Source: a virus. Taken from it: 64,000 nt of DNA. Of the stretch, positions 13,090 through 64,000 are shown in pieces. Under the pieces are notes generated by a model. That model saw only the letters and a program-made list of their open reading frames with translations, did not search any database and was not told the origin of the DNA. The DNA lies in IMG/VR virus record IMGVR_UViG_3300045988_184160, positions 1 through 64,000 of that record, one strand, 5' to 3'. The stretch's first letter is position 1; the number at the start of each line of letters is the position of its first letter. The position numbers were made by a program, and so were the translations under genes.

Positions 13090-13098
13090 TGCACACCC

Positions 13099-22947: not shown

Positions 22948-23199
22948 ATGGGTAAGAAAAAAACCGAACGAAATGGTGGGCCCCTAGACTCCGCCCTGTG
23001 CCCAGTGTGTGGGAAAATAGGTTACAGGTCACGGGCAATAGCCAAGCAAGAACTCAGGAAACAGCAGACGAAAGGAGTGGGAGTCAAATCCTACTACAAG
23101 GACGAAATGTGCGACCCGCCCTACCAGTGGCATCTGACAAGTCAACCGTCAATCGTCCAGAAAACGTGGAGGAAACACACCAATGACTACCGAATCTAG
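22948..23199 (+). CDS. small zinc-ribbon-like protein (83 aa)
   Basis: CPVCGKIGYRSRAIAKQEL...YYKDEMCDPPYQWHLTS. Cys pair plus a distal Cys/His. Family not recognised. Confidence 0.55.
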   Translation: MGKKKTERNGGPLDSALCPVCGKIGYRSRAIAKQELRKQQTKGVGVKSYYKDEMCDPPYQWHLTSQPSIVQKTWRKHTNDYRI

Positions 23200-23530
23200 T
23201 GACACTCGAATTATCGAATATGAGGGTGGCACGATCTGCCGTAGCCTCACACGGGTATCAACTTCACCAACTATTGAGCAGCAGATCCGGTTCGGGGATA
23301 AAACCTTGGGACTATCCCCAGAAGAGTTCTGTAGCATCATTACGCGGTTCGTCTTCGAGCATGTACCTGAGGTGTTCCCTGTGAGGCACTTATTTGTGAC
23401 TGCAACGCAGAGGGCATCGTTTTTCAGGGGTTTGACGGGGTTTGAGGCTGGGGCGTTTCTCAATGACTATTGGGATGCGCAGCCACCAGTGGAAGAACAA
23501 GAGAACAATCTAGTGAATACAGGAGAATAA
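23183..23530 (+). CDS. hypothetical protein (115 aa)
   Basis: ATG with GGAGGA RBS. Overlaps the previous gene by 17 nt. Confidence 0.6.
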   Translation: MTTESSDTRIIEYEGGTICRSLTRVSTSPTIEQQIRFGDKTLGLSPEEFCSIITRFVFEHVPEVFPVRHLFVTATQRASFFRGLTGFEAGAFLNDYWDAQPPVEEQENNLVNTGE

Positions 23531-23535
23531 AGAAC

Positions 23536-23787
23536 ATGAGTAATCTACCATCAGAAGTTGATAACAACACCGCAGTCGGTGGTATCGTTTTCGAGCAAAC
23601 AACCTTCCGTGACTGGTGCAACAACAACGGACTGGAATCAGACGAGCTGAACGGGTATGCTTTCTTCAACGAAGTGTACGACCTATCCCAAGAAGACGGA
23701 CGCGCGACCCTCAAACAGGATTACTCTCTTGAAGAGCTGATCACCATCGCAAAAAGGAACACATACCCAGACACGGAACACCACTAA
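23536..23787 (+). CDS. hypothetical protein (83 aa)
   Basis: ATG at 23536 with AGGAGA upstream (track ORF starts at 23470). Confidence 0.6.
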   Translation: MSNLPSEVDNNTAVGGIVFEQTTFRDWCNNNGLESDELNGYAFFNEVYDLSQEDGRATLKQDYSLEELITIAKRNTYPDTEHH

Positions 23788-23913
23788 AAAACAAGATTTG
23801 GTGCGCACCCCAAATGTATGTTAAACTCTTCCTGTGGCTGCCTGACGCGCGCACAACAAAAACGAATACTCATATTAGTTGCCTCACTGGCATACCAGTC
23901 AGGTAGCCCACAC

Positions 23914-23986
23914 GCCCCCGTAGCTCAGGGGATAGAGCACTTCTCTCCTAAAGAAGGTGTCGGACGTTCGAATCGTCTCGGGGGCA
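23914..23986 (+). tRNA. tRNA-Arg (CCT)
   Basis: Acceptor GCCCCCG/CGGGGGC, D arm TAGCTCAGGGGATAGAGC, anticodon stem CTTCT/AGAAG, loop CTCCTAA, T arm GGACG-TTCGAAT-CGTCT. Confidence 0.9.
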
Positions 23987-23996
23987 CTTGTGATAA

Positions 23997-41659: not shown

Positions 41660-43265
41660 TCAAATAAGGCTGTATAACTTACGTTTGTAAGCCGTGTTTC
41701 CTTGTTTGTGTGCCGCCTTACTGGTCTCCGGGGTGCCGTGTGCACCCCGGTCCGCTAGTACGGTGGTCACCAAGTAAGTTGCTTGTACCCTAGCGGGGCG
41801 AGGAGGAAGAATCACCCCCTTAATATTGTGGTGGTTCTTCCTTTTTGGTGTTGCTGTGTGTTTAGTCCTGTCGCGACTGGGATATTTCAGAGAAGCCCGC
41901 GCGGGCGGGGTTTTCAAGGCAACCTGTGGTTGGAGTTTACGGTTCTTAGCACGGGTTTTCCTAGCTTTCTCAACCTTGGGCACAGCACGGGCAGCGATAT
42001 TCGCGGCTGCGTTCACATCCCTGTCCATTACACCATGCATCGGGCAGTCCGAGACTCTATGAGTAGGATGCGCAACACGAGAATCGCAAGCATGACACAC
42101 CTGTGAGGTGTTTGCCGCGTTTACCGATACAACCCACCCGCCGTTCTGTGACACATAATGGGTAAGCCAGTTAATGAGTTCACCGCGATTCCACCGCCCA
42201 TTCTGCATTGTATTAGTGACCCAGCTGAGGTCTTCCACCGCAACAACCGCGTTACCCCACAGGTGAGATAAATCAGCTATCTCCTGGGCGGCTATAATGG
42301 CTAGTTCCCGTTTCTTACGGGAACTAGCTCCACCGCGAAGCTAGTTCCCGTTTCTTACGGGAACTAGCTTCGCGGTGGAGCTGTGCTTCATCCAGTGCTG
42401 ACATCCGGGCTTGTCTCTGGTAGAGGAGACTGTCTGCTTTCTTTTTAAGGAATCGTACCTGTTTCTCAGAAGCTCTGACACTGTTCCAGAGTGAATGAAC
42501 ACGCTGAGCAAGCGTGCCTTGGTAGACTATCTGCCCTGTCTTAGTGTTGCGAACGACGACGGTGGCGTAGTTATTAATACCAGCATCCACACCGATAACG
42601 TAATCACCTGAGAACTGGACGACAGGGTTATCTGTTGCTACTGTGAAGATGAATACGGGCTGGTTATTCTCGACTTTCACCAAAGGTAGGGTTACTTTTC
42701 CCTCCGGGAAACGGGTGTTATCAAAGCTGAAAATCAGTCTGTACCGTTCACCTTGGATAACCATCTTAAGAACGATTTCCCCATCAGCAAAAGGGTTGTT
42801 CTCAATCACAGCATATTGCTTGTCTACGGCACCAAGGTTAATGTAATCCTCGCCATATGACGGCGCAGATGCATCCACAGTGCGTTTCCAGCCTTGAGAA
42901 ATATATTTAGATGAGGAGCCGTTTACGGCTTTGACACGCTCCTGCCATGAACGATACTCAGTAACTACGCGATGTCTAACTAGCCACTCTTTACGTGATT
43001 TGCCTGTCCTCCCAGTTGCTAGGAAGTCAGGCATGGTCACACCTGCCCGACGACCCGCAACGGCAGGTTGGGTGACGGTAACCTGGGACAGTTCAGACCC
43101 TAAGGTGGTGTCGTTACGAACCACGTAGGTGGCGTAAGCAGAGATACCCTGAACCTCAGAGACAAGCTTAGCTAAAACAGGGGTGCTATCCAGTAGTTCA
43201 CCGTTCAGATTCAGGACGTGAGAAGGGTGCGCCACGAAAGCCTTATAGGTCCGATTCTTAGCCAA
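41660..43265 (-). pseudogene. tnpB: tnpB disrupted by a 40-bp insertion/duplication (frameshift)
   Basis: Track ORFs 42324..43265 and 41660..42238 are the N- and C-terminal parts of one TnpB collinear with 17638..19191. Deleting 40 nt (42329-42368) restores ...LHREASSRKKRELAIIAAQEIADLSH...VAVEDLSWV. Confidence 0.85.
42300..42379. repeat. duplicated 29-nt palindrome plus an inverted 11-mer (composite hairpin) inside tnpB
   Basis: GCTAGTTCCCGtttcttaCGGGAACTAGC at 42300-42328 and 42340-42368. TCCACCGCGAA (42329-42339) and its reverse complement TTCGCGGTGGA (42369-42379). Confidence 0.9.
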
Positions 43266-43281
43266 CGCACCCCACCTTTCC

Positions 43282-43902
43282 TTACTTATCGTCTAGTTTC
43301 TTGGACACATCATCAATGAGTTTACGCTGCTGCTCCCAGCCCCTCAAACGGTAAAACTTGCCGCTAAAGGACGCGAGAAGCGCCATGAAATCCTCCATCA
43401 GAACCGCGTGGGGCTCACGGGTTTCAGGGCTATCCAGGACAGTCACCTCAGCACCATAAGCTGTAAGAAGCTCCGTCAAATAGGTGAAACCAAACCTAGT
43501 GAGCCTAGCCTGATTGGTCACAAATACCCTGACTTTACCCTCCTCAGACTTTACGTCCCTGATGAGAGCTTTAAGACCTTTACGTTTCTCGTTAAGACCA
43601 GAGGCTTTATCTTGAAAAACCTTGTCCGGCTCACCATAAGCCGCCTTCAGCTTCTCCAACTGAGTTTCAATGAGGACATCATCACCGTTAGAAGACCTTA
43701 CATAGAAAAAAGTCTTACCAGCATCAGGCTCAAGCCCCAGCATCTCCCTCTTGAAATCTTCAAGCTCAGACGGGTAGAAAACCTTTTCCCCCGTAATTGA
43801 TACATGGTAACCCAACTTACCGCGCTGACACCAGGCCCTAACAGTAGAAGGCGATATACCTAGAAACTTAGCAGCTTGCCCTACTCTTAGATAATCCTTC
43901 AA
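43282..43902 (-). CDS. tnpA: IS607-type serine recombinase transposase
   Basis: N-terminal MerR-like HTH LRVGQAAKFLGISPSTVRAWCQRGKL. Catalytic region FFYVRSSNGDD (R-x-S) and DKASGLNEKRKGLKALI. Confidence 0.8.
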   Translation of the reverse strand: MKDYLRVGQAAKFLGISPSTVRAWCQRGKLGYHVSITGEKVFYPSELEDFKREMLGLEPDAGKTFFYVRSSNGDDVLIETQLEKLKAAYGEPDKVFQDKASGLNEKRKGLKALIRDVKSEEGKVRVFVTNQARLTRFGFTYLTELLTAYGAEVTVLDSPETREPHAVLMEDFMALLASFSGKFYRLRGWEQQRKLIDDVSKKLDDK

Positions 43903-54000: not shown

Positions 54001-55569
54001 TCAAAATCTGGTAACATCGCCCAGTTTGTTGTTGAAGCCTTAGGTTACAAGGGTACTTGGCGTGATTTCCTCCTAGATTTCCGTCCACAATGGATTTTTA
54101 GTGCGGAAGACATTATAAATGCGCTCGACTCAAACGATGCGATAACCCTACCTGTCTCATACACTGTTGATGGTGCAACCACCAAAGCAGAACTTATTAA
54201 GGAGATCAGGACTCTTCACCCTGACTTTTTTGGTGACGAGAACAGTGGTTTCGGTTCATCTGCTTCTGGTGAGGGGTCTGAGGTAGATGGTGGTATGGTG
54301 TATATCGCTGGTTATGGGATGTCCCAGGATGGTGTGAAAGTTGGGGGTTCCACTAATCCTGTGGGTATTGAGGATACCGAGCTCTCCGAGGACATGGAGG
54401 AGCCCGAAAATAGCAACTACGGCGATAATGATATAGAAGACGTATCATACACCAAACCAGACCATGAACCAGAGGAAGACACGGCAGAAGAACCAGAGGT
54501 TCATGCTGAAACCATACCGGAAGAGCCGATAGTGGAAGATATTGCCGCACCCATCTACGAGAACGCCAAGAACAGCATCAACGCCGATCCTGACGAGTGG
54601 GAAACCGCCAACCAACCCAGCGAGGAATACACGGAGACCGCGCCTCTGGAACCTGTACCCCAGTATTCGGACGGCTCAACAACCGACGAGTACGGGGACA
54701 GGGTTTTTGGTGCATCCACTCGCGCCCCAGAAGGGTATGCTGGCTCTGATACTGATTACCGCGAACGGGCTCAGCAGTCCCAGTCTTTCAAGAATCCGCC
54801 TAAGCACTCTAAAGGGTTTGACCTGCCGCCTATGGGGTTCGACCCGTACAGCATTGAGTCTTTCGACAAAGTGTATGACACGGTTACTGACGCTATTATT
54901 CGTGCCGCACTGGGTAAGAATAGTCAGGGTATTATCGCCTTGTCCATTAAAGATGGGGATGTGATCGTGAACGGGCTCCAAGTGCAGGTGAACACTCAAC
55001 CTGGTGACCTGATGTCGATGCAGGATTCTTTACGGAACCAGCTCACGACTGGGAAAATTGGTGGGCTTATCAACTGGAAGAAGCTCATTACATACATGCG
55101 CTCGGTTGAGGCTTTGGAGTTCTCCGATCTTCCTGATGCTAGGGCGGCTGCTAAAGCAATGCTCAAGGATAAGGATATTTCGGTTGAGCATTTCTTTACC
55201 CGCGTGAGGTCTCTGCAGCTTTTGACGCTGGTTACGAAGACTTACACGAGGCAGGATTATCGGGAGCAGCTTGAGTCTACACCGCAGTTCTATAACCGGA
55301 CCGCTTTTGAGAGGGTTGAGAAGAAGTTCCGGGAGGGTACACTCTTTGGTGCTTCGAAGAGTTTCGCTTATGCGCGTGATCGTTTCAGGCGTAAGGGCGG
55401 AATAAATAAGGTTGTTGGTGTGGGTGCTGGTGCTTTTGGCGCTTTACTGAGGTCTGTTGCTGCGGCTTCTAGGCTGTCGAAAGGGACTGCTAATTTGGGT
55501 GCGCGTATTGCTGTCGCCAATAGGATGGATCGGAGGTCTAGGAGTTATTCTGAGGGGCGTGATATTTAG
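51016..55569 (+). CDS. giant protein (1517 aa) with FtsK/HerA-like P-loop NTPase segment
   Basis: HLVLAASRSGKGVWTSNILAACIISGRPIFYLDNKPD parallels the FtsK/TraB-type Walker A region (..GxTGSGKS..N..I.S.....P.....IDPK) but has GKG. Walker B-like GIVGVFDEMAIF. Acidic low-complexity stretch around aa 1115-1190. Confidence 0.6.
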   Translation: MSENNTNENLRKLGVNLIQQALQEDKLKDPNNTALSPNNVRGIEFLGADGIKIVEHVSGGYSKSISSAMDDFDLNATNALTKEDIRSIFGSRKYGNLEYVHVADNMQIMGATGKPAAAGIAAVLKTITSSNGAPWYGRLHQINGEEIPDTAGWENHKSLEPEAYAFDAKSQLGKKLNIETTPAPETETTVPEAEKPEQEKTPQELEVEQRVAKINKHFKTQINGAIKFLLQKYKMMFASGFDLVQPAGVPFPDDTGTVILRTIKDGKLTYAGDDPVAKGYFREIEKLYENITDASGIKVAKARSHHEIINLAIQGVDVDPNTKLGIPGRNLRVTLPYKMLEYAYGTQGAISQTRTLTDEERIKYTPSSINAWEEYSTHVIRKDLNTLFSSLGYTALVNEKMQDVYDDNRRSTRKEKDKASKIISTHIETLKCMLASTIIIPIFQQIDNETIAVKARVLDNYTDWSKIRQDQIRRAIKDTDVELDNSDVKSYPPVYDGESFSEYRIDLNTTLANAEPVFAYKALQLLLAKGEKLTFENAPLGVDTDGNIVRNGTHFSLSTYLSHLVLAASRSGKGVWTSNILAACIISGRPIFYLDNKPDIGDKVADASKINGSPTAFVVNGGNLNPQSRDSGTHFFGNWNDANSWINTDHIPSYLRSLNIDTRTYNGTVGTLVYLRGMLLFLGIIAARIVYGQGEVYEKLGGKTGIVGVFDEMAIFSKEFLALLKELGKKYPNLKYWQAYQQDPNIEGTKPPAESYWSYLLVKAISETATRIFNLNNAGGQNGENRVSDIFIISQDFFALSDGGNSTPGERAEIARRPGQISSVSMNATDKKGNTGALIPIHQDIIFNMLMALGGDAYLGVHNEVNHLGHKNPNGKTSNYINTQARYFGRIAPYPVDGVRETRAAISSEDQKMTLYKPGLLVADSSVENGEGYNAKYTYFLDNLSSYVKAAGADLPDIISRNEDPIRKGTFHRATALSEYLEMAGVSREETAKRLSKSGNIAQFVVEALGYKGTWRDFLLDFRPQWIFSAEDIINALDSNDAITLPVSYTVDGATTKAELIKEIRTLHPDFFGDENSGFGSSASGEGSEVDGGMVYIAGYGMSQDGVKVGGSTNPVGIEDTELSEDMEEPENSNYGDNDIEDVSYTKPDHEPEEDTAEEPEVHAETIPEEPIVEDIAAPIYENAKNSINADPDEWETANQPSEEYTETAPLEPVPQYSDGSTTDEYGDRVFGASTRAPEGYAGSDTDYRERAQQSQSFKNPPKHSKGFDLPPMGFDPYSIESFDKVYDTVTDAIIRAALGKNSQGIIALSIKDGDVIVNGLQVQVNTQPGDLMSMQDSLRNQLTTGKIGGLINWKKLITYMRSVEALEFSDLPDARAAAKAMLKDKDISVEHFFTRVRSLQLLTLVTKTYTRQDYREQLESTPQFYNRTAFERVEKKFREGTLFGASKSFAYARDRFRRKGGINKVVGVGAGAFGALLRSVAAASRLSKGTANLGARIAVANRMDRRSRSYSEGRDI

Positions 55570-55589
55570 GCTTCTTGGCTTTTTTGGAT

Positions 55590-55621
55590 GGGGTTTACCT
55601 ATTTGGTAGGCCCCATTTTTT
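55590..55621 (+). terminator. rho-independent terminator (+ strand specific)
   Basis: GGGGTTTACC / GGTAGGCCCC (two G-U pairs valid only on + RNA) followed by ATTTTTT. Confidence 0.7.
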
Positions 55622-55869
55622 ATGCTGCCTGGTTTTTTGGTGGGGTTTTGGGTGTGGTGTTTTTGTTTTATGGGTGTGGTGGGGTTTGTTACCCAATATA
55701 ACTGTCCCCCTAAGTTGGGGGTAACATTATGATACTACTACTTTGTTTTAGTGTTCCTGGGACGCCCCACAACCGCACGAACACGGTGCCCAGCCAAAAA
55801 AGAACAATAAACACGCCCCACCCAGTAAAATATAAACTATATAACACACCAAAAAAGGGGGACACGAAA

Positions 55870-56622
55870 ATGGAAGAAAAAAACGAAAAAAAACAAACCT
55901 ACACCATACTCAAAATACGGGAACTAATCACCCAAATACCCCACACCCCCAACAACCAGAACACCCTAAAACGCCTCGAAACCATCCAACAATTCATCCT
56001 TAATAACACCATAAAAGGATCCCTATCCTCAGCAGATGAAGTAGCAAAAACCCTATTCCAAAACCCAGAAACACCCATCACAGAAATACTGCTCAGCAAC
56101 AAAACCACCCTCACCAGAGACAACTTTTACAAGGCAATCGGTAGGTATGACAAGCATTTCATCCGCGCCGCAGGCGGAAACTTTATCGAAAGCTTCATCT
56201 CCGCACACCAAAAATCAGTACAAGGAGACCCCGAAGCTTTCAAAAACATCGACAGGGTAATAAGCTCACTACCCCAAATGTTTAGGCCCGACAAAGAAGA
56301 CTTCGCACCAGAATCACTGAAACACCTGTTTTACGAGGTTCCCACCAACCCCAATCTGACACTGGAAGACTGTGTGCCGGAGCTTCTTTTCTTTGCCAAG
56401 CACAGCAAAATGATGCTAACCGCTGTCGCAGAGGGCCTAAATCAGGAGAAAATGATGTATATTTACCGGCTACTGCGCGGGGTAAATGTGCCTGAAAAGA
56501 GAACTACCACTGGTGAACGCCTTGAATTTAGTGATGAAGAGGTGGGTACGGCGCGTAGAATCATTAGTCGTTACGCAGAGAATAACGCGGATAAGGAGAT
56601 TGAGGAACTTAATGGACGCTAA
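55870..56622 (+). CDS. hypothetical protein (250 aa)
   Basis: ATG at 55870 with AGGGGGA RBS. The track ORF extension back to 55729 is probably non-coding A+C-rich leader. Confidence 0.65.
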   Translation: MEEKNEKKQTYTILKIRELITQIPHTPNNQNTLKRLETIQQFILNNTIKGSLSSADEVAKTLFQNPETPITEILLSNKTTLTRDNFYKAIGRYDKHFIRAAGGNFIESFISAHQKSVQGDPEAFKNIDRVISSLPQMFRPDKEDFAPESLKHLFYEVPTNPNLTLEDCVPELLFFAKHSKMMLTAVAEGLNQEKMMYIYRLLRGVNVPEKRTTTGERLEFSDEEVGTARRIISRYAENNADKEIEELNGR

Positions 56623-57703
56623 ACGATATATTGACGCGGGGGATATTACGCTAGAGAGCGATAAAGATTACCTTTTCTGGTGCACAGTTAAAGCTTATTT
56701 AGGTACGAAATCGGTTGATTTTTTCAGTAAAAATAATGGGCTTGATAATGCACCAAATAGTGTGATTCTTGAGGTGAGCCAAGAAGTTTCTGACCCTAAC
56801 ATTATTTTTCTTTTAGAAGACGCACCCAATAATTACTTACCACACCTTTATCTAAGTGAAATACAGGACAGGAACCGTGCGGGGGAGGATATTCCGGTAG
56901 GTTTCTCTGATTACCTCTTCCAGGAATACACCTCCACCTACAGGTGGCTAATGGCGCGGGCGGCAGGTAATCACCTACTAGGCGACGATTCTGCCTATAA
57001 CCTGAAAATTATTCTCGACGAAGATAAGGATGTTGCACAGATTCTAAGGATGTACCTTATTTCTGGCGCAAAGAATCTGCATATTAACCTTGAAGATGAC
57101 AGCTCCGCGAATATTGCTTTGCACCTACTTATGGCTGGCGAGTTCACTAAAGGCGACTGGGTTTCACCTGCCCAGAAGAAGGAATATATGAAGGAAAACC
57201 TGCGGGTTCCTGGGTTTTATCAGGTGGTTGAGCGGCATTCTAGGGACGGTGAGCTGCTGTCCAAGCCTTTGTCACGGCTTCTGGTTTATGTTGATTCCCT
57301 TGAGAACACTGGGTTTTCGGGGCTGGTTATTGATGAGCCGTTTAGTTTAGCTGAGCGTCGCCGCATGTTTAGCAAGGCTGACTCTGATGTTCAGCATCTT
57401 TATAGGGGTCTTCTTGAGCCGTCGGATACCTATCGTAGGGTGTCGTTTTCTTTTGTGGACACTGGGGTTTTGGGGTGCATGAATGTGCTTGAGGATCGTT
57501 ATATGTTGAGTAGATTGGAGGGTTCTGCTGAGCGTAGGGTGTCTTGTGTGGGTGCTGATGGGGGGCTTGTTGAAGTAGTGGATAGTTTTTCTGCTTCTGA
57601 GTTTGTGTATTGGTGCTTGAGGGAGCGGGATTCTTCGTTGGATTTGTCGTCTTTGAGTTCTTCGGCGTGGGATCGACTGAATGGTGGCATTATTAAGGGG
57701 TAA
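56612..57703 (+). CDS. hypothetical protein (363 aa)
   Basis: ATG at 56612 overlaps the previous stop. No motif recognised. Its stop codon overlaps the first TGATGTCAT repeat. Confidence 0.65.
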   Translation: MDAKRYIDAGDITLESDKDYLFWCTVKAYLGTKSVDFFSKNNGLDNAPNSVILEVSQEVSDPNIIFLLEDAPNNYLPHLYLSEIQDRNRAGEDIPVGFSDYLFQEYTSTYRWLMARAAGNHLLGDDSAYNLKIILDEDKDVAQILRMYLISGAKNLHINLEDDSSANIALHLLMAGEFTKGDWVSPAQKKEYMKENLRVPGFYQVVERHSRDGELLSKPLSRLLVYVDSLENTGFSGLVIDEPFSLAERRRMFSKADSDVQHLYRGLLEPSDTYRRVSFSFVDTGVLGCMNVLEDRYMLSRLEGSAERRVSCVGADGGLVEVVDSFSASEFVYWCLRERDSSLDLSSLSSSAWDRLNGGIIKG

Positions 57704-57969
57704 TGATGTCATTACTGGGGCACATGATTGCATAATCCTAGCTAGGTGACTGCATTTTCAGGAATAATGGTGGCATATTCACATGGTATGCCACCATTTT
57801 TATAGGTTGATGATGTCATTACCAACTTCCTTGATGTCATATTTGGATAGCATGATGTCATTTTTTACTATCAACACCATCACTCTAGGCACCTCTTGAT
57901 GTCACAATAACAGCCCATGATGTCATAATAAGCGGGTGATGGTATCATTTTAGAGTCCAATGATGTCAT
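57704..57969 (+). repeat. iteron-like array: 8 direct copies of TGATGTCAT on a ~21-bp lattice
   Basis: Copies start at 57704, 57811, 57832, 57853, 57897 (TGATGTCAC), 57918, 57937 (variant TGATGGTATCAT) and 57961. All are in the same orientation. Confidence 0.9.
57766..57801 (+). terminator. rho-independent terminator inside the repeat region
   Basis: Perfect 12-bp stem AATGGTGGCATA / TATGCCACCATT with T-run. Confidence 0.8.
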
Positions 57970-57991: not shown

Positions 57992-60079
57992 ATGACCCAC
58001 CAGAACACCACTGCACCGCAATCCGCACTGCTCGCGTTAGGTCAATACCGCCCAAAAAACCAAGAAAACGAAATATTCGAAACACTAAAACGTGAAGGAT
58101 ACGACCTCACCGAACTACAACCAGCCGTCGAACAAGACGGAAACAAACTCGTCATCACCTGCGCAGGCTCCGGTAAAACCACAATGCTCTGCATCAACAT
58201 CCTCAACGACCTCAAAAACGGCGAATACCAAACCCAAGCAACCACCAAAAACGGGATACCCATCACCCAAACAACCAAAGTATGGGTAGGAACCTTCTCA
58301 GCATCAGGCGCAAAATCACTCAAAAACTCCCTCAACAACTACGCCCGCATGCTAGACATCAACAACAGCAGAGACAACATCACCATCTCAACCCTGCACG
58401 CAGAATTTAAAAAAGTCATCGAAGAAGCAGGAGACCAGCTCCTCGGACGAGAAGGCACCAGCCTTAACATGATCGACGACCAAACCAACGAAAAAATCCT
58501 AAAGAAAGTCCTCACCAAAAAACACGAAATACACCTACAACAAGAAGACTTCAAAAAACTCTACACCGCCCTCATGTACACGCGGGCATCCCTTAAACCC
58601 GACAAAAAATACTCCCACGAAGGGTACAGGGTACTCAAAGACAAAGAAACCCCTGAAACAATCGAAGCGATCCTGGACAACTGGGCGCAAGCAAGAGAAC
58701 ACTGGAACGACGTGGGCGGGTACGACTTTGAGGACTTGCAGGACATCCTCTACGTGCGGCTTGCATACCCCGAGAGTTTCCCAGAATACGACTGGCAGAA
58801 AGCAATCAGTGGACGCTACACCCGCATCTTCATGGACGAATTTCAGGACACCAGTGACAAGCAGCTGTACATTTTGAAGCACTACGCAACCGACCCTGGG
58901 TTCAAGAAAATCGTTGCTGTGGGTGACGACGACCAGATGATTTACTCTTGGCGTGGCTCCTCCACAACGGTTATCACCAAGGACTTCAAAGAGCATTTCA
59001 ACCCCACCGTGGTTGCGCTCTCCAAAAACCGCAGGTGCGCTCGCGGTGTCCTCATGCCCGTTATCCCCTCAATCGAGAGGAACACGGATCGGTACGAGAA
59101 ACTGATTACCAGTGATATTGAGGGCGGCAGGACAGAGCTCGCAGGGTACAGCTCATTCGACGCTATGGGGCAAGACCTGATCCGCCGAGCCCAAGCAGAT
59201 GTGAGGGTTGGGCGTAGCGTCGCTGTGCTCTGCAGGGATAACCGGAGCGGTATCATACCAGCCTTGTTTTTCCAGTCTGCTATCAGTAGCAAAGGTACGG
59301 GCGTGAATTTCAGGATTTCTGGTTTCGGCATGTCCCTCGCATCTAGGACGGGTAAGGACGCGATATCTGTTTTGTCACTTATCGACCAGACGGGGGAAGA
59401 GCTGTACCGCCCATTGTCGAACCTTGTTGGTGGTTACATGCGTTCCCCTGAGGTGGGTGCGGTGGTTGATCGGTGCCGTGAGACTGGGCAGACTGTTTGG
59501 GAGCTCATGGATTCTGAGCCTGCGGGGTTCAAGTACACTGCTCTTAAACTGTACGGCAAGCTCCTGCCTTTACGGGAAGCTAAAGAGAAAAGCTCTTCTG
59601 ACACTGATTTTGCGCTCGCTATCTGTGACTATTTCATGCACGACATTTGGGGTAGCGCCACCAGTGACAAGCAGTTGCAGCTGCAGGCTTTATGCCAGGC
59701 TTTGAAGTCTCTTATCGCGGCTTCGGGTAGCTACCGTGAGGCGGTTAAAACATTGTATGGGCTTGGGTCTGATATTCGTGAGAGGGTGGATAACCTTGGT
59801 GCCCCGATTAGTGTAGCTACTGTCCATGATTTCAAGGGTAAGGAAGCAGATTCGGTTTATTTGTGGGATGATACGCTGGGTGTTTTCCCGAAGGATGATG
59901 CTTTGGAGCTTGAAGAAGAGAGGCGTCTGCACTATATTGCGTGCACCCGTGCTAGGGATAATCTGGTGATTATGTACCGTGACGGTGAGGGTTTCGGGCC
60001 TGGGCGTTTTGTGCGTGAGATGGATTTATCTCTCATGGAGCGGCGTGACCGTGACGTTAGTGGTTTAACGTTGCTCTAG
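57992..60079 (+). CDS. UvrD/Rep/PcrA-like superfamily 1 DNA helicase
   Basis: Motif I VITCAGSGKTTML, II IFMDEFQDTS, III VGDDDQMIYSWRGS, IV LSKNRRCA, V VATVHDFKGKEADSVYL, VI EERRLHYIACTRARDNLVI. Confidence 0.9.
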   Translation: MTHQNTTAPQSALLALGQYRPKNQENEIFETLKREGYDLTELQPAVEQDGNKLVITCAGSGKTTMLCINILNDLKNGEYQTQATTKNGIPITQTTKVWVGTFSASGAKSLKNSLNNYARMLDINNSRDNITISTLHAEFKKVIEEAGDQLLGREGTSLNMIDDQTNEKILKKVLTKKHEIHLQQEDFKKLYTALMYTRASLKPDKKYSHEGYRVLKDKETPETIEAILDNWAQAREHWNDVGGYDFEDLQDILYVRLAYPESFPEYDWQKAISGRYTRIFMDEFQDTSDKQLYILKHYATDPGFKKIVAVGDDDQMIYSWRGSSTTVITKDFKEHFNPTVVALSKNRRCARGVLMPVIPSIERNTDRYEKLITSDIEGGRTELAGYSSFDAMGQDLIRRAQADVRVGRSVAVLCRDNRSGIIPALFFQSAISSKGTGVNFRISGFGMSLASRTGKDAISVLSLIDQTGEELYRPLSNLVGGYMRSPEVGAVVDRCRETGQTVWELMDSEPAGFKYTALKLYGKLLPLREAKEKSSSDTDFALAICDYFMHDIWGSATSDKQLQLQALCQALKSLIAASGSYREAVKTLYGLGSDIRERVDNLGAPISVATVHDFKGKEADSVYLWDDTLGVFPKDDALELEEERRLHYIACTRARDNLVIMYRDGEGFGPGRFVREMDLSLMERRDRDVSGLTLL

Positions 60080-60127: not shown

Positions 60128-61966
60128 GTGAGCACAATTTTGGAAGAAGAATACCCAGATTATGAGGATGAGTACGTATATGATGACTACCCAGATGATT
60201 ATGATGAAGAAGAAGAAGAGGAATACGACAGCGCCAATGAAGAAGCGCCAGGCGCAACAGCCTTCATCCAACAGCAAAACCATGTAGCATCAGCAGACAA
60301 AAAATACTCTTCACCCAAACCAGAAGAACACGACTTCCCGCCCCTAAAAGGCACAGACATCGTTTCCCGAATCCTCGACAAAACCGAGACAGGGAAAGCG
60401 CTCGTCATCTTCGACCCCGACATTGATGGTGCCATAGCTGGGCTATTCTTCTGCTGGGAACTACATAAACGCGGCATCACGTTCAAAACCTACGTTAACC
60501 CTGGGCGTGAACACGGGTTCCTACTCGGGGAGAAAGAAGCTAAAACACTCGCAGGCGGCACAGTGTTCGCGGGGGATTTCACGGTAACACGTGAACAGGT
60601 GAAAATGCTCACCAGCAACAATGTTTCCATCGTGTGTATCGACCACCACGAGTTTGAGGCTGGGGCTAAGGACACTGCGTTCATTCACTACACTGACGGG
60701 GAACCAGTCGTGGGTGGCACCCCACCAGAGGGGTGCACTGCTGAGGGTGTGGTAGTGAACACCCAGTATGAGTGGGAGCCGGAAGGTAACCGGTTCCAGT
60801 CCGGGGCGGGCGCGGTGTGGGAGGTACTAAGGAGGATCAGCCCAACCATGTATGACACATCCGACGCTAAAGCACTCGTCGGGTGGACTCTGCTCTCAGA
60901 TATCCGTGACATATCCGCACCTGCAGCGAAGATTTTCCTGTGGGAGCTTTTCAACCAGCCATACGATGGGTGGCTCAAAAAGTATGCGGATATCCTTCCC
61001 CGTAACCCTTTCGAGCCTTTCGGGGTGCCCCGCGCTTCTAGGCAGTGGGTGGACTATAGCCTGTCACCTAAAATAAACTCCCTGTTCAGGTTCGGGTTGG
61101 AACGTGAAGCTGTCGCATTCACACTAGGGGGCTTGTACCCTTATGCTGATGCGCAAAAAGACCAGCGTAAACTAGTTGACCTTCTGCAGGAGATCGCGCA
61201 TGTGAAAGATTACGGTGCGTTGACTGTGGTGGCTATCCCCAGGTTCCACCCTAAGATTCCGTCTGATGTGAGGAAACACATCTCAAACTTTGTGGGGCTT
61301 GTAGCATCAAACCACACGGAGAAAGGTAAAGGGTGCCTCGGTTTCGTGTATGACGGGTTCGGTAACGAGTTGGAGGACGGCACCCCTTACCACCAGTTAG
61401 ATGGGGTGGGGCGCGCATCGTTCCGTTCAAACATCACAGGCTACCCGTACCGCGAGAATTTCAGAGGACAGGGGGTTGATGCTAGGGGGCATAGTATGGC
61501 TTTCGGTATCAAAAACCTGAAACCATCTAATGATTTGTTTGAGAACCTGAACAGTATTTGCGTGGAAGCTAAAACCAAGTACCCAAATATTCTGAAAGTA
61601 AAAGTTCTCAAAACCCTAGACTGGGATACCCTACGTGACATAGCCGAACACAACGACTACTCCCCCACAAAAGACCAGATCCTAGTGAAATACAACCCGT
61701 GGGCAAACACTGAGGAGGAAGTGCTAATACCCGCAGATGATGCATCCAAGTTCCATGCGGAACACAACATTCTGCACCGCTACGATGATGGTGAATCATC
61801 CTCCAAGATGCCGTGGGTAACTGAGGATCAGTCCGAGAAATTCATTAAATACCGTGTGGAAGGGATTCAGATTCTTTCCTACGGTGAGAAGTATTCACCA
61901 GTGGACAGGTTCTTACAGGTCTTCACTGTAAAAAACACTCTCGGGGTAACCTGCAAGGACTTTTAG
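60128..61966 (+). CDS. DHH/DHHA1-family phosphoesterase (RecJ-like) with polyacidic N-terminus
   Basis: GTG start. DHH motifs IFDPDIDGAIAG, FAGDFTV, VCIDHHEF. DHHA1-like ARGHSMAFGI. The first ~45 aa are EEEYPDYEDEYVYDDYPDDYDEEEEEEYD. Confidence 0.75.
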   Translation: MSTILEEEYPDYEDEYVYDDYPDDYDEEEEEEYDSANEEAPGATAFIQQQNHVASADKKYSSPKPEEHDFPPLKGTDIVSRILDKTETGKALVIFDPDIDGAIAGLFFCWELHKRGITFKTYVNPGREHGFLLGEKEAKTLAGGTVFAGDFTVTREQVKMLTSNNVSIVCIDHHEFEAGAKDTAFIHYTDGEPVVGGTPPEGCTAEGVVVNTQYEWEPEGNRFQSGAGAVWEVLRRISPTMYDTSDAKALVGWTLLSDIRDISAPAAKIFLWELFNQPYDGWLKKYADILPRNPFEPFGVPRASRQWVDYSLSPKINSLFRFGLEREAVAFTLGGLYPYADAQKDQRKLVDLLQEIAHVKDYGALTVVAIPRFHPKIPSDVRKHISNFVGLVASNHTEKGKGCLGFVYDGFGNELEDGTPYHQLDGVGRASFRSNITGYPYRENFRGQGVDARGHSMAFGIKNLKPSNDLFENLNSICVEAKTKYPNILKVKVLKTLDWDTLRDIAEHNDYSPTKDQILVKYNPWANTEEEVLIPADDASKFHAEHNILHRYDDGESSSKMPWVTEDQSEKFIKYRVEGIQILSYGEKYSPVDRFLQVFTVKNTLGVTCKDF

Positions 61967-62075: not shown

Positions 62076-63512
62076 TTGTCTAACTTTATTAACCGAGGAC
62101 CGTTTAAAGGTATCCGTGGTACCGCCCGCGCAGACGGCACTTTCCTCCTAGAAGAAGTCGGTGTTTCTATCGACATCGGCAACTCTGAAACTAAGGCTGT
62201 TGTTGTTCTTCAGACGATTGATGGGCCTATAAAGCCTATTTATATCCCCATTACGCTGCCCAATACTTTCATTCGTGAATCCACTATCCCACTCGGTGAT
62301 GAGGTCTTCCCGGATGAAAATAATGAAGAGGTGCGTTCGTGGCGTTTCTATCCTTGTGGTGTCTACACTGCAAAGAACGGACAAGAAATAGATCTATCCC
62401 AAGAAAATAATCAATACGGCAAGCAGGCGTACTGGGATGCTGGGCTTAACGTCGAGATCAACGAATCATCGGGCAACGGGACAGCTCTCCCTGCAGGGAG
62501 TTTCACCCCGAAGGTAAACACTATGACCACCGTACTAACCCTTAACCTTGTTTTCGGTGAAGTGTACCGCCGTATTAGCAAAAAATTCGGGGTCTCTATT
62601 GAGAATTTTGATATTGTCTTCGCTAAAGTGGGCGCAATGTTGCCTCCCAAGGAGTTTAGGGATGAGGAGACTCCCAACAGTGGGCAGATGCTCCTCAAGA
62701 AGATGATCCTGTCAGTCAAAAACATTGAGTTTGCGTACCCACAGATCAGTAAACCAATTATTCTTAAAGACGGTATCAATAGTTTAGATATCAAGCGAGA
62801 AGGATACCCAGGTTTCTACTATACCCTGTTTGAAAGAATGGGTAAGGGGGTTTCTAAGCAGCGCAAGTTCTACTTTGAAGAGGACAAAAAGACTGGACAG
62901 AGAAGCAGTATCCTCCTCAGGCGTTTGTGTGTAATCATCGACGTTGGAAGTGGAACCTCTGATATCCTCATTTTCAAGGACGGTAAAATCACAGGTAGTC
63001 GCGGTACCGTTCCTTATGGTGCTAAAAATGTTGCTCTACATGTGCAGGGTAAGCTTGGGCTTGATGCGGTCTCCGAAGAGGACGTTAAAAACGGTTACGT
63101 GACTATGGGCAACGACCATAATATTGATATTAGTGCCGCAATTAATGATGGACGCCGAGTTGTTGCTGGGAAGATCATGTCTAAACTCTCGGATATTATC
63201 ACAAGCTCCGGTTTCAGTCTTGATAATGTTGCCTCTGTCCTAGTGATTGGTGGAGGGGCGATGACTTTTGAATCTTCCCGAGCTTATGAGGAGTCCACCC
63301 CTCACAGTGGTGAAGTGAAGGTGAAGATTCTCCCCATTAGCAAGTTCTTCAAGACAGAGTTCTCCCAAGTCGCGCAATATGCTAAGGTTCTAGACCTTCC
63401 TCTAGAGTCCTACCAGGATTCCGGGGTTCGTCCAACCGACCCGCGTATGATGAATGTTTGTGGCATGGCTTTCATCCTGCATCATCGCATCACCACTGAG
63501 AGCACAGAGTAA
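62076..63512 (+). CDS. actin-like ATPase (ParM/Alp family-like)
   Basis: Phosphate-1 SIDIGNSETKAVV, phosphate-2 VIIDVGSGTSDILIF, adenosine motif VLVIGGGAMTF. TTG start. Confidence 0.75.
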   Translation: MSNFINRGPFKGIRGTARADGTFLLEEVGVSIDIGNSETKAVVVLQTIDGPIKPIYIPITLPNTFIRESTIPLGDEVFPDENNEEVRSWRFYPCGVYTAKNGQEIDLSQENNQYGKQAYWDAGLNVEINESSGNGTALPAGSFTPKVNTMTTVLTLNLVFGEVYRRISKKFGVSIENFDIVFAKVGAMLPPKEFRDEETPNSGQMLLKKMILSVKNIEFAYPQISKPIILKDGINSLDIKREGYPGFYYTLFERMGKGVSKQRKFYFEEDKKTGQRSSILLRRLCVIIDVGSGTSDILIFKDGKITGSRGTVPYGAKNVALHVQGKLGLDAVSEEDVKNGYVTMGNDHNIDISAAINDGRRVVAGKIMSKLSDIITSSGFSLDNVASVLVIGGGAMTFESSRAYEESTPHSGEVKVKILPISKFFKTEFSQVAQYAKVLDLPLESYQDSGVRPTDPRMMNVCGMAFILHHRITTESTE

Positions 63513-63621: not shown

Positions 63622-64000
63622 GTGAATAACAGTCATTACATTGGGTGGGTTTCAAAAGGTTTTTACGAGAGCTACCGGAACCATTATGAAGCTATCAAAA
63701 CTTTCTTACTTAATGAGGCTAGTATTGAACTGAACATCATTGACGACAGCGTTTTAAGCTCAGTGGCGCGCACTACTATACTCAGCCTTGACTCTGACAC
63801 GGTTCTAGTGGTTTTCACCGATGCAGAAAAAGCAGATGGGCGGCAGATTTACGGCAACTCCCTATACAAAAGCCAAATCTTTTACTCCGTCCCCTCCAAC
63901 GAGAGTGACGGCATACCAGCCCTAGTAAAAATTATTCACGGGCTTGTGAACAGCGCTCGCGTGAATGTGGAAGATATAGAGAATCTTTTTGAGGTTCATA
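63622..64000 (+). CDS. hypothetical protein, 5' part only (runs off the window)
   Basis: GTG at 63622 with AGGGGAA RBS. Open frame for 126 codons to the window end. Not in the ORF track, presumably because it has no stop codon within the window. Confidence 0.5.
   Translation, partial: MNNSHYIGWVSKGFYESYRNHYEAIKTFLLNEASIELNIIDDSVLSSVARTTILSLDSDTVLVVFTDAEKADGRQIYGNSLYKSQIFYSVPSNESDGIPALVKIIHGLVNSARVNVEDIENLFEVH

What the first reader, a model, noticed from the sequence alone, without database searches (positions are those of the whole stretch)
57704..57969. Iteron-like array: eight same-orientation TGATGTCAT boxes phased at ~21 bp upstream of the helicase gene
Boxes (consensus wTGATGTCATwwt) start at 57704, 57811, 57832, 57853, 57897, 57918, 57937 (variant TGATGGTATCAT) and 57961. 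Successive spacings among the last seven are 21, 21, 44, 21, 19 and 24 nt, a ~21-22-bp lattice (two helical turns), so the sites face one side of the helix. The first box overlaps the stop codon of 56612..57703, and a perfect terminator (57766-57801) separates it from the rest. The other seven fill the ~190 bp directly before the helicase ATG at 57992. The last two units extend to TCATTTTAGAG. Direct, phased short repeats like this are the hallmark of plasmid or phage replication iterons, parC-type centromeres (an actin-like ATPase gene lies 4 kb downstream in the same orientation), or a cooperative repressor array. No initiator or adaptor protein is identifiable by motif, so the binding protein is likely one of the neighbouring unknowns.
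Basis: partly seen in the sequence, partly recalled or inferred. Interest (0 to 1): 0.7.

Follow-up and report, generated by a model that had tools for sequence, protein, structure and literature searches.

The report
Phased protein-binding array before helicase operon
A 290-bp stretch in front of a helicase gene of an uncultured ~243-kb phage-like element holds 14 short palindromic boxes spaced exactly two DNA turns apart; it is conserved under selection across a whole family of such elements and is most likely a docking and control site for a DNA-binding protein (centromere-like or origin-like), but which one is not settled.

Summary
TGATGTCAT occurs six times in 64 kb, all within 57704-57969 on one strand (0.42 expected). 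A weight matrix shows that the eight boxes belong to a lattice of 14 positions (57682-57969). The period is 21.45 bp and residuals stay under 0.8 bp. Each box is an imperfect 10-bp palindrome (ATGAnnTCAT).

Nine strain variants show no indels. Only 10% of box positions vary, against 39% of spacer positions (p=1e-8).

The window is part of a ~243-kb element catalogued as viral. Ten further lineages, with helicases only 35-69% identical, keep the same arrangement: a ~200-250-aa gene, a ~360-430-aa gene, a 21-22-bp phased array, then the helicase. The repeat sequence changes between lineages (mostly TTAGA/T).

The array lies between a hairpin terminator and the first gene of a co-directional block. 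That block encodes a helicase, a RecJ-like protein, an actin-like ATPase, a coiled-coil protein and a small protein that looks ribbon-helix-helix.

The best reading is a cooperative nucleoprotein array that acts as operator and parC/alpS-like anchor for the actin-like system (~0.4). An iteron origin (~0.3) and a pure operator (~0.2) remain open. No binding protein was identified: family searches and structure prediction failed.

The parts
57682..57969 (+). Whole array: 14 lattice positions, period 21.45 bp, each an imperfect 10-bp palindrome (consensus ATGATGTCAT, followed by T/A-rich bases)
   Evidence: Boxes conserved against spacers in 9 strains.
57682..57690 (+). Site 1, weak box TGGTGGCAT, inside the last codons of gene 56612-57703
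   Evidence: Weight-matrix score 11.9 bits. Invariant in 9 strains.
57704..57712 (+). Site 2, perfect box TGATGTCAT, directly after the TAA stop
   Evidence: Invariant.
57725..57733 (+). Site 3, weak box TGATTGCAT
   Evidence: 8.9 bits. Invariant.
57747..57755 (+). Site 4, weak box TGACTGCAT (TGATTGCAT in several strains)
   Evidence: Lattice position. Strain variants.
57768..57776 (+). Site 5, weak box TGGTGGCAT; also the left arm of the hairpin
   Evidence: 11.2 bits.
57789..57797 (-). Site 6, the same box reversed (TGCCACCAT on +); also the right arm of the hairpin
   Evidence: Invariant.
57766..57803 (+). Hairpin (14-bp stem, 5-nt loop) followed by TTTTT: intrinsic-terminator-like, ending the upstream gene pair
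   Evidence: dG -19.1 kcal/mol, z -4.2, 0 of 200 shuffles. The consensus terminator scan did not list it.
57811..57819 (+). Site 7, perfect box
57832..57840 (+). Site 8, perfect box
   Evidence: Altered in 1 of 9 strains.
57853..57861 (+). Site 9, perfect box
57874..57883 (-). Site 10, degenerate reversed box (reverse complement TGATGGTGT); the most variable site
   Evidence: Read from the sequence. Lattice fit. Variable in strains.
57897..57905 (+). Site 11, TGATGTCAC; variable between strains (TGCTGTCAT, TGACGTCAC)
57918..57926 (+). Site 12, perfect box
57940..57948 (+).
   Evidence: 11.8 bits. Invariant.
57961..57969 (+). Site 14, perfect box followed by TTTAGAG, 22 nt before the helicase ATG
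57901..57948 (+). Two overlapping sigma-70-like promoter matches built from boxes 11-13 (GTCACA-17-CATAAT and ATGTCA-17-TATCAT, both with TG). These are only consensus matches.
   Evidence: 3 matches found, 4.6 expected in the region, so not above chance
55870..56622 (+). Conserved upstream gene 1 (250 aa; ~200-213 aa in other lineages); function unknown; carries a helix-turn-helix-looking segment (read by eye)
   Evidence: No family hit. Only a weak sigma-region-4 match in a relative, E=0.12. AlphaFold2 pLDDT 47.
56612..57703 (+). Conserved upstream gene 2 (363 aa, acidic; ~390-430 aa in other lineages); always ends at the array; function unknown
   Evidence: No hit in Pfam, PHROGs, NCBIfam or PDB. 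Library-wide profile search found nothing informative.
57992..60079 (+). UvrD/PcrA-type superfamily 1 helicase, first gene after the array
   Evidence: PF00580 7e-30, PF13361 1e-15; phrog_1967
60128..61966 (+). DHH/RecJ-like protein
   Evidence: phrog_2484 1.5e-12; TIGR00644 recJ 3e-6, below cutoff
62076..63512 (+). Actin-fold ATPase (ParM/Alp-like candidate)
   Evidence: PF21522 1e-7; phrog_691 'partition protein' 2e-14
63622..64000 (+). Start of a 576-aa coiled-coil protein gene, cut by the window end. The RHH-like 167-aa gene follows about 1.4 kb beyond the window (L022 17381-17884).

Best explanation
The array is a scaffold for cooperative binding of a dimeric sequence-specific DNA-binding protein. 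One dimer sits on each 10-bp imperfect palindrome. The centres are two helical turns apart, so all dimers face the same side of the DNA and can polymerise along it into a wrapped nucleoprotein filament. Seven strong sites would nucleate the filament and seven weak sites would fill in.

The array runs from the terminator of the upstream genes to 22 nt before the helicase start codon, and it covers the only promoter-like hexamers. Occupancy must therefore also set transcription of the helicase / RecJ-like / actin-like / coiled-coil / small-protein gene block.

The most likely specific role is a centromere-like anchor, analogous to parC of ParMRC plasmids and to alpS of prophage CGP3. The small protein encoded after the actin-like and coiled-coil genes would bind the array and couple the 243-kb genome to actin-like filaments, while autoregulating the block. 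That protein has a ribbon-helix-helix-like N-terminus, an acidic disordered tail and a short conserved C-terminal peptide.

Shown here: the lattice, its conservation under selection, its fixed position across the family, and the gene content. Inferred: protein binding, the identity of the binder, and the coupling to the actin-like protein.
For: - **Lattice.** There are 14 sites with period 21.45 bp and residuals under 0.8 bp; 0 of 5000 random site sets are phased as well.
- **Selection.** In 9 strain variants, 14 of 140 box positions vary against 58 of 150 spacer positions (p=1.2e-8). There is not one indel among 72 variable positions in the array.
- **Family-wide conservation.** A 21-22-bp phased array occupies the same place in 10 further lineages whose helicases are 35-69% identical, although the repeat sequence differs.
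- **Uniqueness.** This is the only clustered short word in the 64 kb. It is also the only place in the 243-kb IMG/VR contig that matches two boxes at this spacing.
- **Gene block.** An actin-fold ATPase lies in the same co-directional block in 8 of the 10 other lineages.
- **Candidate adaptor.** In all seven lineages where the locus reaches that far, the coiled-coil gene is followed by a small protein whose N-terminus fits the strand-helix-helix pattern and whose tail is acidic.
- **Extra arrays in relatives.** Phased mini-arrays of the lineage's own motif lie directly upstream of the actin-like gene (L112 14455-14573) and of the RHH-like gene (L109 17793-17864).
- **Precedents.** parC is a set of tandem repeats upstream of the operon; it is bound by ParR, which has an N-terminal RHH domain and a C-terminal tail that binds ParM, and ParR also represses the promoter (PMC5016525). 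[quoted passage not shown]
- **Not an RNA element.** The region shows no RNA structure signal (z -0.07). Palindromic boxes and strict helical phasing point to recognition of duplex DNA.
Against: - The ribbon-helix-helix fold is not confirmed. There is no Pfam, NCBIfam or PDB hit. The only hint is an Arc-like PHROG match at E=0.37. The AlphaFold2 model has pLDDT 51 and Foldseek gave nothing.
- The array is 4 kb from the actin-like gene, with two genes in between. A canonical parC abuts parM.
- L107 and L114 keep the array but have no actin-like gene within 8-9 kb downstream.
- The tightest conserved neighbours are the two unknown upstream genes and the helicase.
- In four lineages, mini-arrays also lie upstream of that unknown gene pair. 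That pattern fits an iteron and initiator layout, or a general regulator, equally well.
- The promoter matches inside the array are no more frequent than chance.
- The RHH-like gene lies outside the window.
Confidence: 0.4

Rival explanations
1. Iteron-type replication origin or copy-control region. One of the two conserved upstream gene products (250 aa or 363 aa) is the initiator. It binds the 21.5-bp phased iterons, distorts the DNA and loads replication proteins. The arrays on either side of the gene pair in some lineages would correspond to the origin iterons and incompatibility iterons of P1 and F.
For: - Direct repeats of 17-22 bp are the signature of iteron plasmids such as RK2, F, P1, R6K and pPS10 (PMC4980987); that they are typically phased about 22 bp apart is stated from general knowledge. 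The 21.45-bp lattice matches this.
- The array always starts at the 3' end of the ~400-aa gene. It stays there in L116, where an extra gene separates it from the helicase.
- L107 and L114 keep the gene pair, the array and the helicase without a nearby actin-like gene.
- L116, L115, L109 and L108 carry a second phased array 0.4-1.3 kb upstream of the gene pair, so the pair is flanked by arrays.
- L107 has two iteron blocks flanking a ~200-bp unique core.
- The neighbouring genes are DNA-metabolism genes.
Against: - No AT-rich unwinding element is present. The longest A/T-only run is 9 nt and GC content is 33-47% across the array.
- No DnaA box lies within 1.8 kb.
- Neither upstream protein matches any Rep, initiator or winged-helix family in Pfam, PHROGs, NCBIfam or PDB. 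The 363-aa protein is acidic (pI 4.8).
- Cumulative GC skew rises smoothly through 57.8 kb. Its minimum in the window is near 8-10 kb, although skew follows gene orientation here.
- The adjacent helicase is UvrD/PcrA-type, not a replicative hexameric helicase.
- Fourteen sites are more than the 3-7 typical of origin iteron blocks.
Confidence: 0.3
2. Purely transcriptional control array. A regulator encoded by the element coats the phased boxes and switches the helicase operon on or off as a timing or lysogeny-type switch. The regulator could be the ~205-250-aa protein with the helix-turn-helix-like segment. The same regulator would control other operons of the module in relatives, with no role in replication or segregation.
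For: - The array fills the whole gap between a terminator and the first gene of a long co-directional block, and it overlaps the promoter-like hexamers.
- All strong boxes have the same orientation as transcription.
- In relatives, mini-arrays of the same motif lie upstream of several different genes of the module.
- In L116 a consensus extended -10 (TGTTATAAT) follows the last unit (read from the sequence).
- A relative of the 250-aa protein matches sigma-factor region 4, though only at E=0.12.
Against: - Fourteen phased sites over 290 bp are far more than repression of one promoter needs.
- The lattice begins inside the upstream gene and upstream of the terminator, well away from any promoter.
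- The helix-turn-helix assignment is by eye only. The AlphaFold2 model is unusable (pLDDT 47).
- This reading is not exclusive: centromere-binding proteins such as ParR also act as operator-binding repressors (PMC5016525).
Confidence: 0.2
3. Other roles: a packaging (pac/cos-type) recognition site for a small terminase, an array of RNA-level binding sites in a 5' leader, or intrinsically bent DNA with no specific binder.
For: Packaging sites can contain phased short repeats (general knowledge). The phased T/A-rich flanks after each box could bend DNA.
Against: - No terminase gene is nearby, and no contig ends at the array.
- The RNA fold is not better than shuffles (z -0.07).
- Palindromic boxes, conservation of sequence-specific cores and strict duplex phasing argue for a specific double-stranded DNA binder.
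Confidence: 0.07

Closest known systems
parC centromeres of type II (ParMRC) plasmid partition loci (R1, pSK41)
   Same: Both are tandem same-orientation repeats upstream of an operon that encodes an actin-like ATPase and a small adaptor. Both overlap the operon promoter, so the binder also autoregulates. The repeats are continuous in pSK41 and split around the promoter in R1 (PMC5016525). pSK41 repeats are about 20 bp long (general knowledge), close to the 21.5-bp unit here.
   Different: - Fourteen units here, against 4 in pSK41 and 10 in R1.
- A helicase gene and a RecJ-like gene sit between the array and the actin-like gene, and a ~600-aa coiled-coil protein sits between the actin-like gene and the putative adaptor.
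- The adaptor fold is unconfirmed.
- The actin-like protein matches only PF21522 and phrog_691, not a ParM family.
- The host replicon is a ~243-kb element catalogued as viral, not a plasmid.
alpS repeats / AlpA / AlpC of Corynebacterium prophage CGP3
   Same: A phage-borne actin-like protein works with a co-transcribed DNA-binding adaptor. The adaptor recognises many short conserved repeats (24 copies of TTAAnnG) in the promoter region of its own operon, and the system is needed for efficient phage DNA replication (PMC4446434). The family-wide core motif here, TTAG(A/T), is similarly short and is embedded in an array.
   Different: No sequence relationship was tested or seen. For alpS no strict two-turn lattice is stated in the passages read. 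The gene order differs (alpA precedes alpC). In the window's clade the motif is a 10-bp palindrome.
Iterons of theta-replicating plasmids (P1, F, R6K, RK2, pPS10) and lambda ori
   Same: Both are direct repeats of 17-22 bp phased at about two helical turns, next to a gene that could encode the binder. Some relatives have arrays on both sides of that gene, like the origin and incompatibility iterons of P1 and F (PMC4980987; the layout comparison is from general knowledge). Lambda iterons are also individually palindromic (general knowledge).
   Different: No AT-rich unwinding element, DnaA boxes or recognisable Rep or winged-helix initiator were found. There are more sites than usual, and no skew inflection was seen.
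Operator/centromere arrays of ribbon-helix-helix proteins (omega of pSM19035, ParG of TP228)
   Same: In those systems one small RHH protein binds arrays of short repeats upstream of several operons and serves as both global repressor and centromere-binding protein (general knowledge; reviewed in PMC5016525). This matches the several mini-arrays seen in relatives.
   Different: Those repeats are contiguous 7-8-bp units, not 10-bp boxes on a 21.5-bp lattice. Their partner is a Walker-type ATPase, not an actin-like protein.

Membership tests
Type II partition locus (parC / ParM / ParR) | Tandem direct repeats in one locus upstream of the operon | tested here: met
   14 phased boxes at 57682-57969, at the head of a co-directional gene block.
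Type II partition locus (parC / ParM / ParR) | Actin-fold ATPase (ParM) encoded next to the centromere | tested here: inconclusive
   An actin-fold protein is present (PF21522 1e-7; phrog_691 'partition protein' 2e-14). It lies 4.1 kb downstream with two genes in between, has no PDB or ParM-family sequence match, and is absent within 8-9 kb in L107 and L114.
Type II partition locus (parC / ParM / ParR) | Small adaptor with an N-terminal ribbon-helix-helix domain and a C-terminal motor-binding tail | tested here: inconclusive
   The 167-aa protein (L022 17381-17884) and its counterparts show the sequence pattern and an acidic tail. There is no Pfam, NCBIfam or PDB hit. The Arc-like PHROG match is only E=0.37. 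The AlphaFold2 model has pLDDT 51, with an extended segment followed by two helices. Foldseek found nothing.
Type II partition locus (parC / ParM / ParR) | Adaptor binds the repeats; the locus stabilises a replicon and exerts incompatibility | not testable with these tools
   Needs EMSA or ChIP and plasmid-stability assays.
Iteron-type theta replication origin | Direct repeats of 17-22 bp, typically phased about 22 bp apart | tested here: met
   Period 21.45 bp. Repeat lengths for comparison from PMC4980987; the ~22-bp phasing of plasmid iterons is from general knowledge.
Iteron-type theta replication origin | Adjacent gene for a Rep initiator (winged-helix domains) | tested here: inconclusive
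   Two conserved genes abut the array, but neither hits any Rep or initiator family. AlphaFold2 on the 250-aa protein gave pLDDT 47. The 363-aa protein was not folded.
Iteron-type theta replication origin | AT-rich DNA unwinding element beside the iterons | tested here: not met
   The longest A/T-only run is 9 nt. GC content is 0.33-0.47 in 30-bp windows, and coding sequence lies on both sides.
Iteron-type theta replication origin | DnaA boxes (optional in many plasmids) | tested here: not met
   The nearest matches with up to one mismatch are at 53793 and 59785.
Iteron-type theta replication origin | Strand-composition switch at the origin | tested here: inconclusive
   Cumulative GC skew rises through 57.8 kb with no inflection. 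Skew follows gene orientation here, and only 64 kb of ~243 kb was available.
Iteron-type theta replication origin | Autonomous replication of the fragment together with the initiator | not testable with these tools
   An experiment is needed.
Rho-independent terminator (57766-57803) | GC-containing hairpin followed by a T run, downstream of a stop codon | tested here: met
   14-bp stem, dG -19.1 kcal/mol, z -4.2, followed by TTTTT. The arms are conserved in 9 strains, with changes mostly in the loop. The arms are also lattice boxes, so a dual role is possible.

The most novel reading that the evidence does not exclude
The array is the centromere of a previously undescribed genome-positioning machine of large gut phage-like elements. 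An adaptor that looks ribbon-helix-helix polymerises on 14 phased boxes and, together with a ~600-aa coiled-coil protein, couples the 130-265-kb genome to actin-like filaments. This would be an actin-based counterpart of the tubulin (PhuZ) spindle of nucleus-forming jumbo phages, or the partition system of a plasmid-like prophage. The rapid turnover of the box sequence on an unchanged 21.5-bp lattice would then set incompatibility or exclusion groups between related elements sharing a host.
Probability: 0.25. Interest if true: 0.75.

Novelty: new variant of a known kind. Interest (0 to 1): 0.55.

Why it matters
The element is common in metagenome assemblies: the helicase cluster alone has 222 member sequences, on contigs of 235-265 kb. 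It belongs to a broad, uncultured and almost wholly unannotated family; about 90% of the window's proteins match no family.

This array is the one non-coding feature shown here to be conserved across that family. It is therefore the best entry point for experiments. A ~300-bp fragment and three small candidate proteins would be enough to test for origin, centromere or master-operator function.

If it is an origin or centromere, it gives a handle for building replicons or vectors for the (unknown) hosts, for inferring lifestyle (lytic or plasmid-like prophage), and for defining incompatibility groups. The pattern of a fixed lattice with changing boxes is also a clean natural example of co-evolution between a DNA-binding protein and a multi-site target.

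Tried and rejected
**Searches that found nothing useful**
- Megablast of 55-64 kb against plasmids and phages: no match.
- tblastn of the actin-like protein and of a ~400-aa family member against cultured phages: no match.
- Species-representative genomes: only distant helicases, none from this family.
- Tandem Repeats Finder on the array: nothing, because the units are too divergent.
- IMG/VR scans with the 363-aa protein and two family alignments: only the same contig and one relative.
- Pfam, PHROGs, NCBIfam and PDB sequence or profile searches on the 250-aa, 363-aa, 167-aa and 576-aa families: no significant hit.

**Homologue collection and structure prediction**
- The last homologue search used a fused two-family alignment to feed structure prediction. 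It returned only 22 proteins.
- Both AlphaFold2 models were low confidence (pLDDT 47 and 51), and the Foldseek results were meaningless.
- A library-wide profile search with the 363-aa family gave one true distant relative and one spurious saposin-repeat protein.

**Explanations rejected**
- Chance: ruled out.
- Coding or peptide repeat: no + strand ORF of 40 aa or more lies within the array, and the alternating 21/22 spacing breaks the reading frame.
- Structured RNA: z -0.07.
- A second array at 60.08-60.3 kb: this signal is a Glu/Asp-rich coding tract.
- Relationship to other IMG/VR hits carrying TGATGTCAT pairs: these are 102-bp tandem units that look like baculovirus hr regions.

**Idea left untested**
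- The ~205-aa protein might be a phage sigma factor and TTAGA a promoter element, recalling the SPO1 late -35 sequence CGTTAGA (from memory). This rests on one E=0.12 match.
Full report

Yes. TGATGTCAT occurs six times in the 64-kb window. All copies are on the + strand, between 57704 and 57969, against 0.42 expected; none of 100 shuffles reached six. Allowing one mismatch adds only 57897 inside the region, and elsewhere the count is at chance (14 found, 13.5 expected). A scan of every 7-, 8- and 9-mer for local clustering finds this word family and nothing comparable anywhere else in the window.

**2. The array is larger and more regular than described.**

I built a weight matrix from the seven clear boxes. 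It also picks up same-orientation boxes at 57682 (TGGTGGCAT), 57725 (TGATTGCAT), 57768 (TGGTGGCAT) and 57940 (TGGTATCAT).

Three more lattice positions are also filled:
- TGACTGCAT at 57747, which reads TGATTGCAT in several strains.
- A reversed copy at 57789 (TGCCACCAT).
- A degenerate reversed copy at 57875.

In all, 14 consecutive lattice positions are occupied. A straight-line fit gives a period of 21.45 bp with no site more than 0.76 bp off. For the 11 sites called objectively by the matrix, none of 5000 random site sets is phased as well. Alignment-free autocorrelation of the region peaks at lags 21, 43 and 64.

Each box is an imperfect 10-bp palindrome (ATGA-nn-TCAT). This suggests a dimeric binder, and the two-turn spacing puts all sites on one face of the helix.

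The 'perfect terminator' is real as a hairpin (dG -19.1 kcal/mol, z -4.2, followed by T5). Its two arms are lattice boxes 5 and 6 in inverted orientation. The first lattice site lies inside the last codons of the upstream gene, and the first strong box abuts its TAA stop.

**3. What replicon is this?**

- The helicase protein is encoded, residue for residue, on 14 metagenome contigs of up to 158 kb.
- At 99% identity it is found on a 243,430-bp contig catalogued as viral in IMG/VR.
- Its 90% cluster holds 222 sequences, on contigs of 235-265 kb.
- The window carries seven tRNA genes, a sliding clamp, a DnaQ-like exonuclease, thymidylate synthase, TnpB-type genes, an IS607-like unit, an SbcC-like ATPase and a tail-lysozyme domain.
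- Most proteins match no family, and no virion gene was recognised. 'Phage' therefore rests on the catalogue entry.
- Nothing similar exists in the plasmid, cultured-phage or species-representative genome collections.

**4. Selection within the clade.**

Nine distinct strain versions of the array were recovered using an anchor in the helicase start, which puts no constraint on the boxes. They align without a single gap. Within the 290-bp array, 14 of 140 box positions vary against 58 of 150 spacer positions (Fisher p=1.2e-8).

Nine of the 14 boxes are invariant, including the weak ones at 57682, 57725, 57789 and 57940. The variable boxes are the degenerate ones at 57747, 57768, 57875 and 57897, plus one strain at 57832. 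The spacers change faster than the adjacent coding sequence. The boxes and the spacing are what is conserved.

**5. Conservation across the family.**

Helicase homologues at 35-69% identity fall into about nine groups. I fetched a long contig for each. Every one has the same core arrangement:
- a ~200-250-aa gene,
- a ~360-430-aa gene (both families homologous across lineages),
- a non-coding gap,
- the helicase.

In every gap there is a phased array with period 21-22 bp (autocorrelation and sliding scans; unit alignments).

The repeat sequence is not conserved. The closest other clade (L104, helicase 69% identical) again has 14 sites, at period 21.6 bp, with boxes of the TGGTnnCAC type in both orientations (these site calls are partly by eye). 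The eight more distant lineages share a short core, TTAG(A/T), once per unit, together with a lineage-specific element. Examples are ATTTAGAAATTA in L116, TTAGGTTTTCYGAAAC in L113, ATTAGAnnnnnGAGTAGT in L108 and GTTAGTT in L107. In the window only the last two units keep TTTAGAG. Unit numbers range from 5 to 16.

In L116 an extra gene lies between the array and the helicase, and the array stays next to the ~400-aa gene. L107 has two blocks of units around a ~200-bp unique core.

A fixed lattice with changing boxes is what co-evolution with a cognate binding protein predicts.

**6. Context downstream.**

After the array, all genes run in the same direction with short gaps. The order is:
- UvrD/PcrA-type helicase,
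- DHH/RecJ-like protein,
- actin-fold ATPase (PF21522; phrog_691 'partition protein'),
- a ~600-aa coiled-coil protein,
- a small protein of 167 aa, just beyond the window end,
- further on, FHA, PP2C and Ser/Thr-kinase genes.

The helicase ... DHH ... actin-like ... coiled-coil ... small-protein order recurs in most lineages. In all seven lineages that could be checked, the small protein begins with a basic arm, a short strand-like segment (TVRIP, or VxIxxxV) and two helices. It continues into an acidic, disordered tail and ends in a short conserved peptide. That is the architecture of ParR-type centromere-binding adaptors (PMC5016525).

The tools did not confirm this fold:
- There is no Pfam, NCBIfam or PDB hit.
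- The only hint is an Arc-like repressor PHROG match at E=0.37.
- The AlphaFold2 model has the expected extended-helix-helix order but a pLDDT of 51.
- Foldseek returned nothing.

**7. Further arrays in relatives.**

Phased mini-arrays of a lineage's own TTAG motif occur at other intergenic sites of the module:
- directly upstream of the actin-like gene (L112 14455-14573),
- directly upstream of the RHH-like gene (L109 17793-17864),
- 0.4-1.3 kb upstream of the unknown gene pair (L116 4440-4660, with ten units, and weaker ones in L115, L109 and L108).

The window has no second site: there is none in the 64 kb, and only one place in the 243-kb contig matches two boxes at this spacing.

**8. How it most likely works.**

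The following is shown:
- an array of 14 palindromic sites on a strict two-turn lattice,
- conservation under selection,
- a fixed place at the head of a gene block,
- coverage of the stretch from the upstream terminator to 22 nt before the start codon.

The following is inferred. A dimeric protein binds each box and polymerises cooperatively from strong to weak sites into a wrapped filament. Any promoter for the helicase block must lie within the last units. The only sigma-70-like matches are built from boxes 11-13, and they are not above chance. Occupancy therefore also controls transcription.

For the specific role I favour a centromere-like anchor and operator for the actin-like system (about 0.4), for three reasons:
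- The gene block contains the motor and a ParR-like candidate adaptor.
- In relatives the same motif sits in front of those two genes.

**9. Rivals.**

*Iteron origin or copy-control region (about 0.3).* This is supported by the iteron-like period (PMC4980987), by the invariable contact with the two unknown upstream genes, by persistence of the array in L107 and L114 where no actin-like gene is nearby, and by arrays flanking the gene pair in four lineages. It is weakened by four negatives:
- No AT-rich unwinding element.
- No DnaA boxes nearby.
- No recognisable initiator.
- No skew inflection in the window.

*Purely transcriptional operator array (about 0.2).* This fits the position and the multiple mini-arrays, but it does not explain 14 sites that start inside the upstream gene. 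It is also not exclusive of the other two readings.

*Packaging site, RNA element or plain bent DNA (under 0.1).* No contig ends at the array, and the RNA fold is no better than shuffles (z -0.07).

**10. Comparison with what is known, and novelty.**

The array works like parC, alpS or iteron arrays. It cannot be filed as a member of any of those systems, because the defining protein partners are unconfirmed. It fails two origin criteria (unwinding element and DnaA boxes) and meets the repeat criteria of both families.

I rate it a new variant of a known kind. It is a family-wide, 21.5-bp-lattice array at the head of an operon that combines helicase, RecJ-like, actin-like, coiled-coil and RHH-like genes, in uncultured elements of 130-265 kb. 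The binder's specificity turns over while the geometry stays fixed.

Interest is moderate (0.55). The kind of element is familiar. Its value is that it is the first conserved cis-element defined for this abundant, unannotated group, and that it makes origin, centromere or operator function directly testable with a 300-bp fragment and three small proteins.

Noticed in passing
window 41660-43902 (- strand); also 17620-19191 (+) and 21297-22826 (-): An IS607-like unit interrupts the + strand gene block. It consists of a serine recombinase with an HTH domain (43282-43902) plus TnpB-like ORFs carrying a Cas12f1-like TNB domain. Two further TnpB-like ORFs lie upstream.
   Followed up: no
window 6734-23987: Seven tRNA genes (Met, Phe, Leu, Ser, Pro, Thr, Arg) are scattered among a sliding-clamp gene (9429-10703), a DnaQ-like exonuclease (10710-11531) and thymidylate synthase (13099-13974). 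The minimum of cumulative GC skew in the window lies here, at ~8-10 kb.
   Followed up: partly
L030, L036, L039, L043, L064, L089 (IMGVR_UViG_2595698789_000001, 133 kb): The IMG/VR scan for paired TGATGTCAT boxes hit one 133-kb contig many times. There the boxes sit in 102-bp tandem units around a GCTTTACGAGTAGAATTCTACTCGTAAAAC palindrome. These look like baculovirus hr regions with CRE-like sites (recognition from memory). This is an unrelated coincidence of motif.
   Followed up: partly
window 55569-55870: The gap before the 250-aa gene holds a strong terminator-like hairpin (55586-55618) and a G/T-rich tract with repeated TTTTGG(G/T)TGTGGTG (55624-55690). It contains no TGATGTCAT box.
   Followed up: no
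window 60150-60260: The Glu/Asp/Tyr-rich low-complexity N-terminus of the DHH/RecJ-like protein gives a false lag-21 periodicity signal, also seen in L103. It is not a second array.
   Followed up: yes
L108 3630-5921; L109 4659-6015; L112 6231-7397; L115 6059-6964; L116 4422-5779: Gene-free gaps of 0.9-2.3 kb lie upstream of the ~205-aa gene in distant relatives (in L112 between the two conserved genes). Except in L112 they hold TTAG mini-arrays. No Rfam family matches there; the only hit in these loci is a tRNA in L113 at 6195-6266.
   Followed up: partly
L022 19831-22088 (about 67.8-70.1 kb in window coordinates, beyond the window): An FHA-domain protein, a PP2C phosphatase and a Ser/Thr protein kinase are encoded in a row downstream of the module.
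   Followed up: no
L114 ~20-900 and ~12240-12700: Strong repeats of 26-31-bp period lie in two intergenic regions of a distant relative. They differ from the 21.5-bp arrays.
   Followed up: no
L103 8001-8060; window 55729-55869: Gene-start ambiguities. In a 96%-identical strain the helicase was called 20 codons longer (715 aa), from a GTG inside box 13 of the array. The 250-aa gene is called as 297 aa in some assemblies, from the ATG at 55729.
   Followed up: partly
L113 5871-6149: An HU/IHF-type DNA-binding protein gene (PF00216) lies about 1 kb upstream of the conserved gene pair in one relative. It could be an architectural partner for the array.
   Followed up: no
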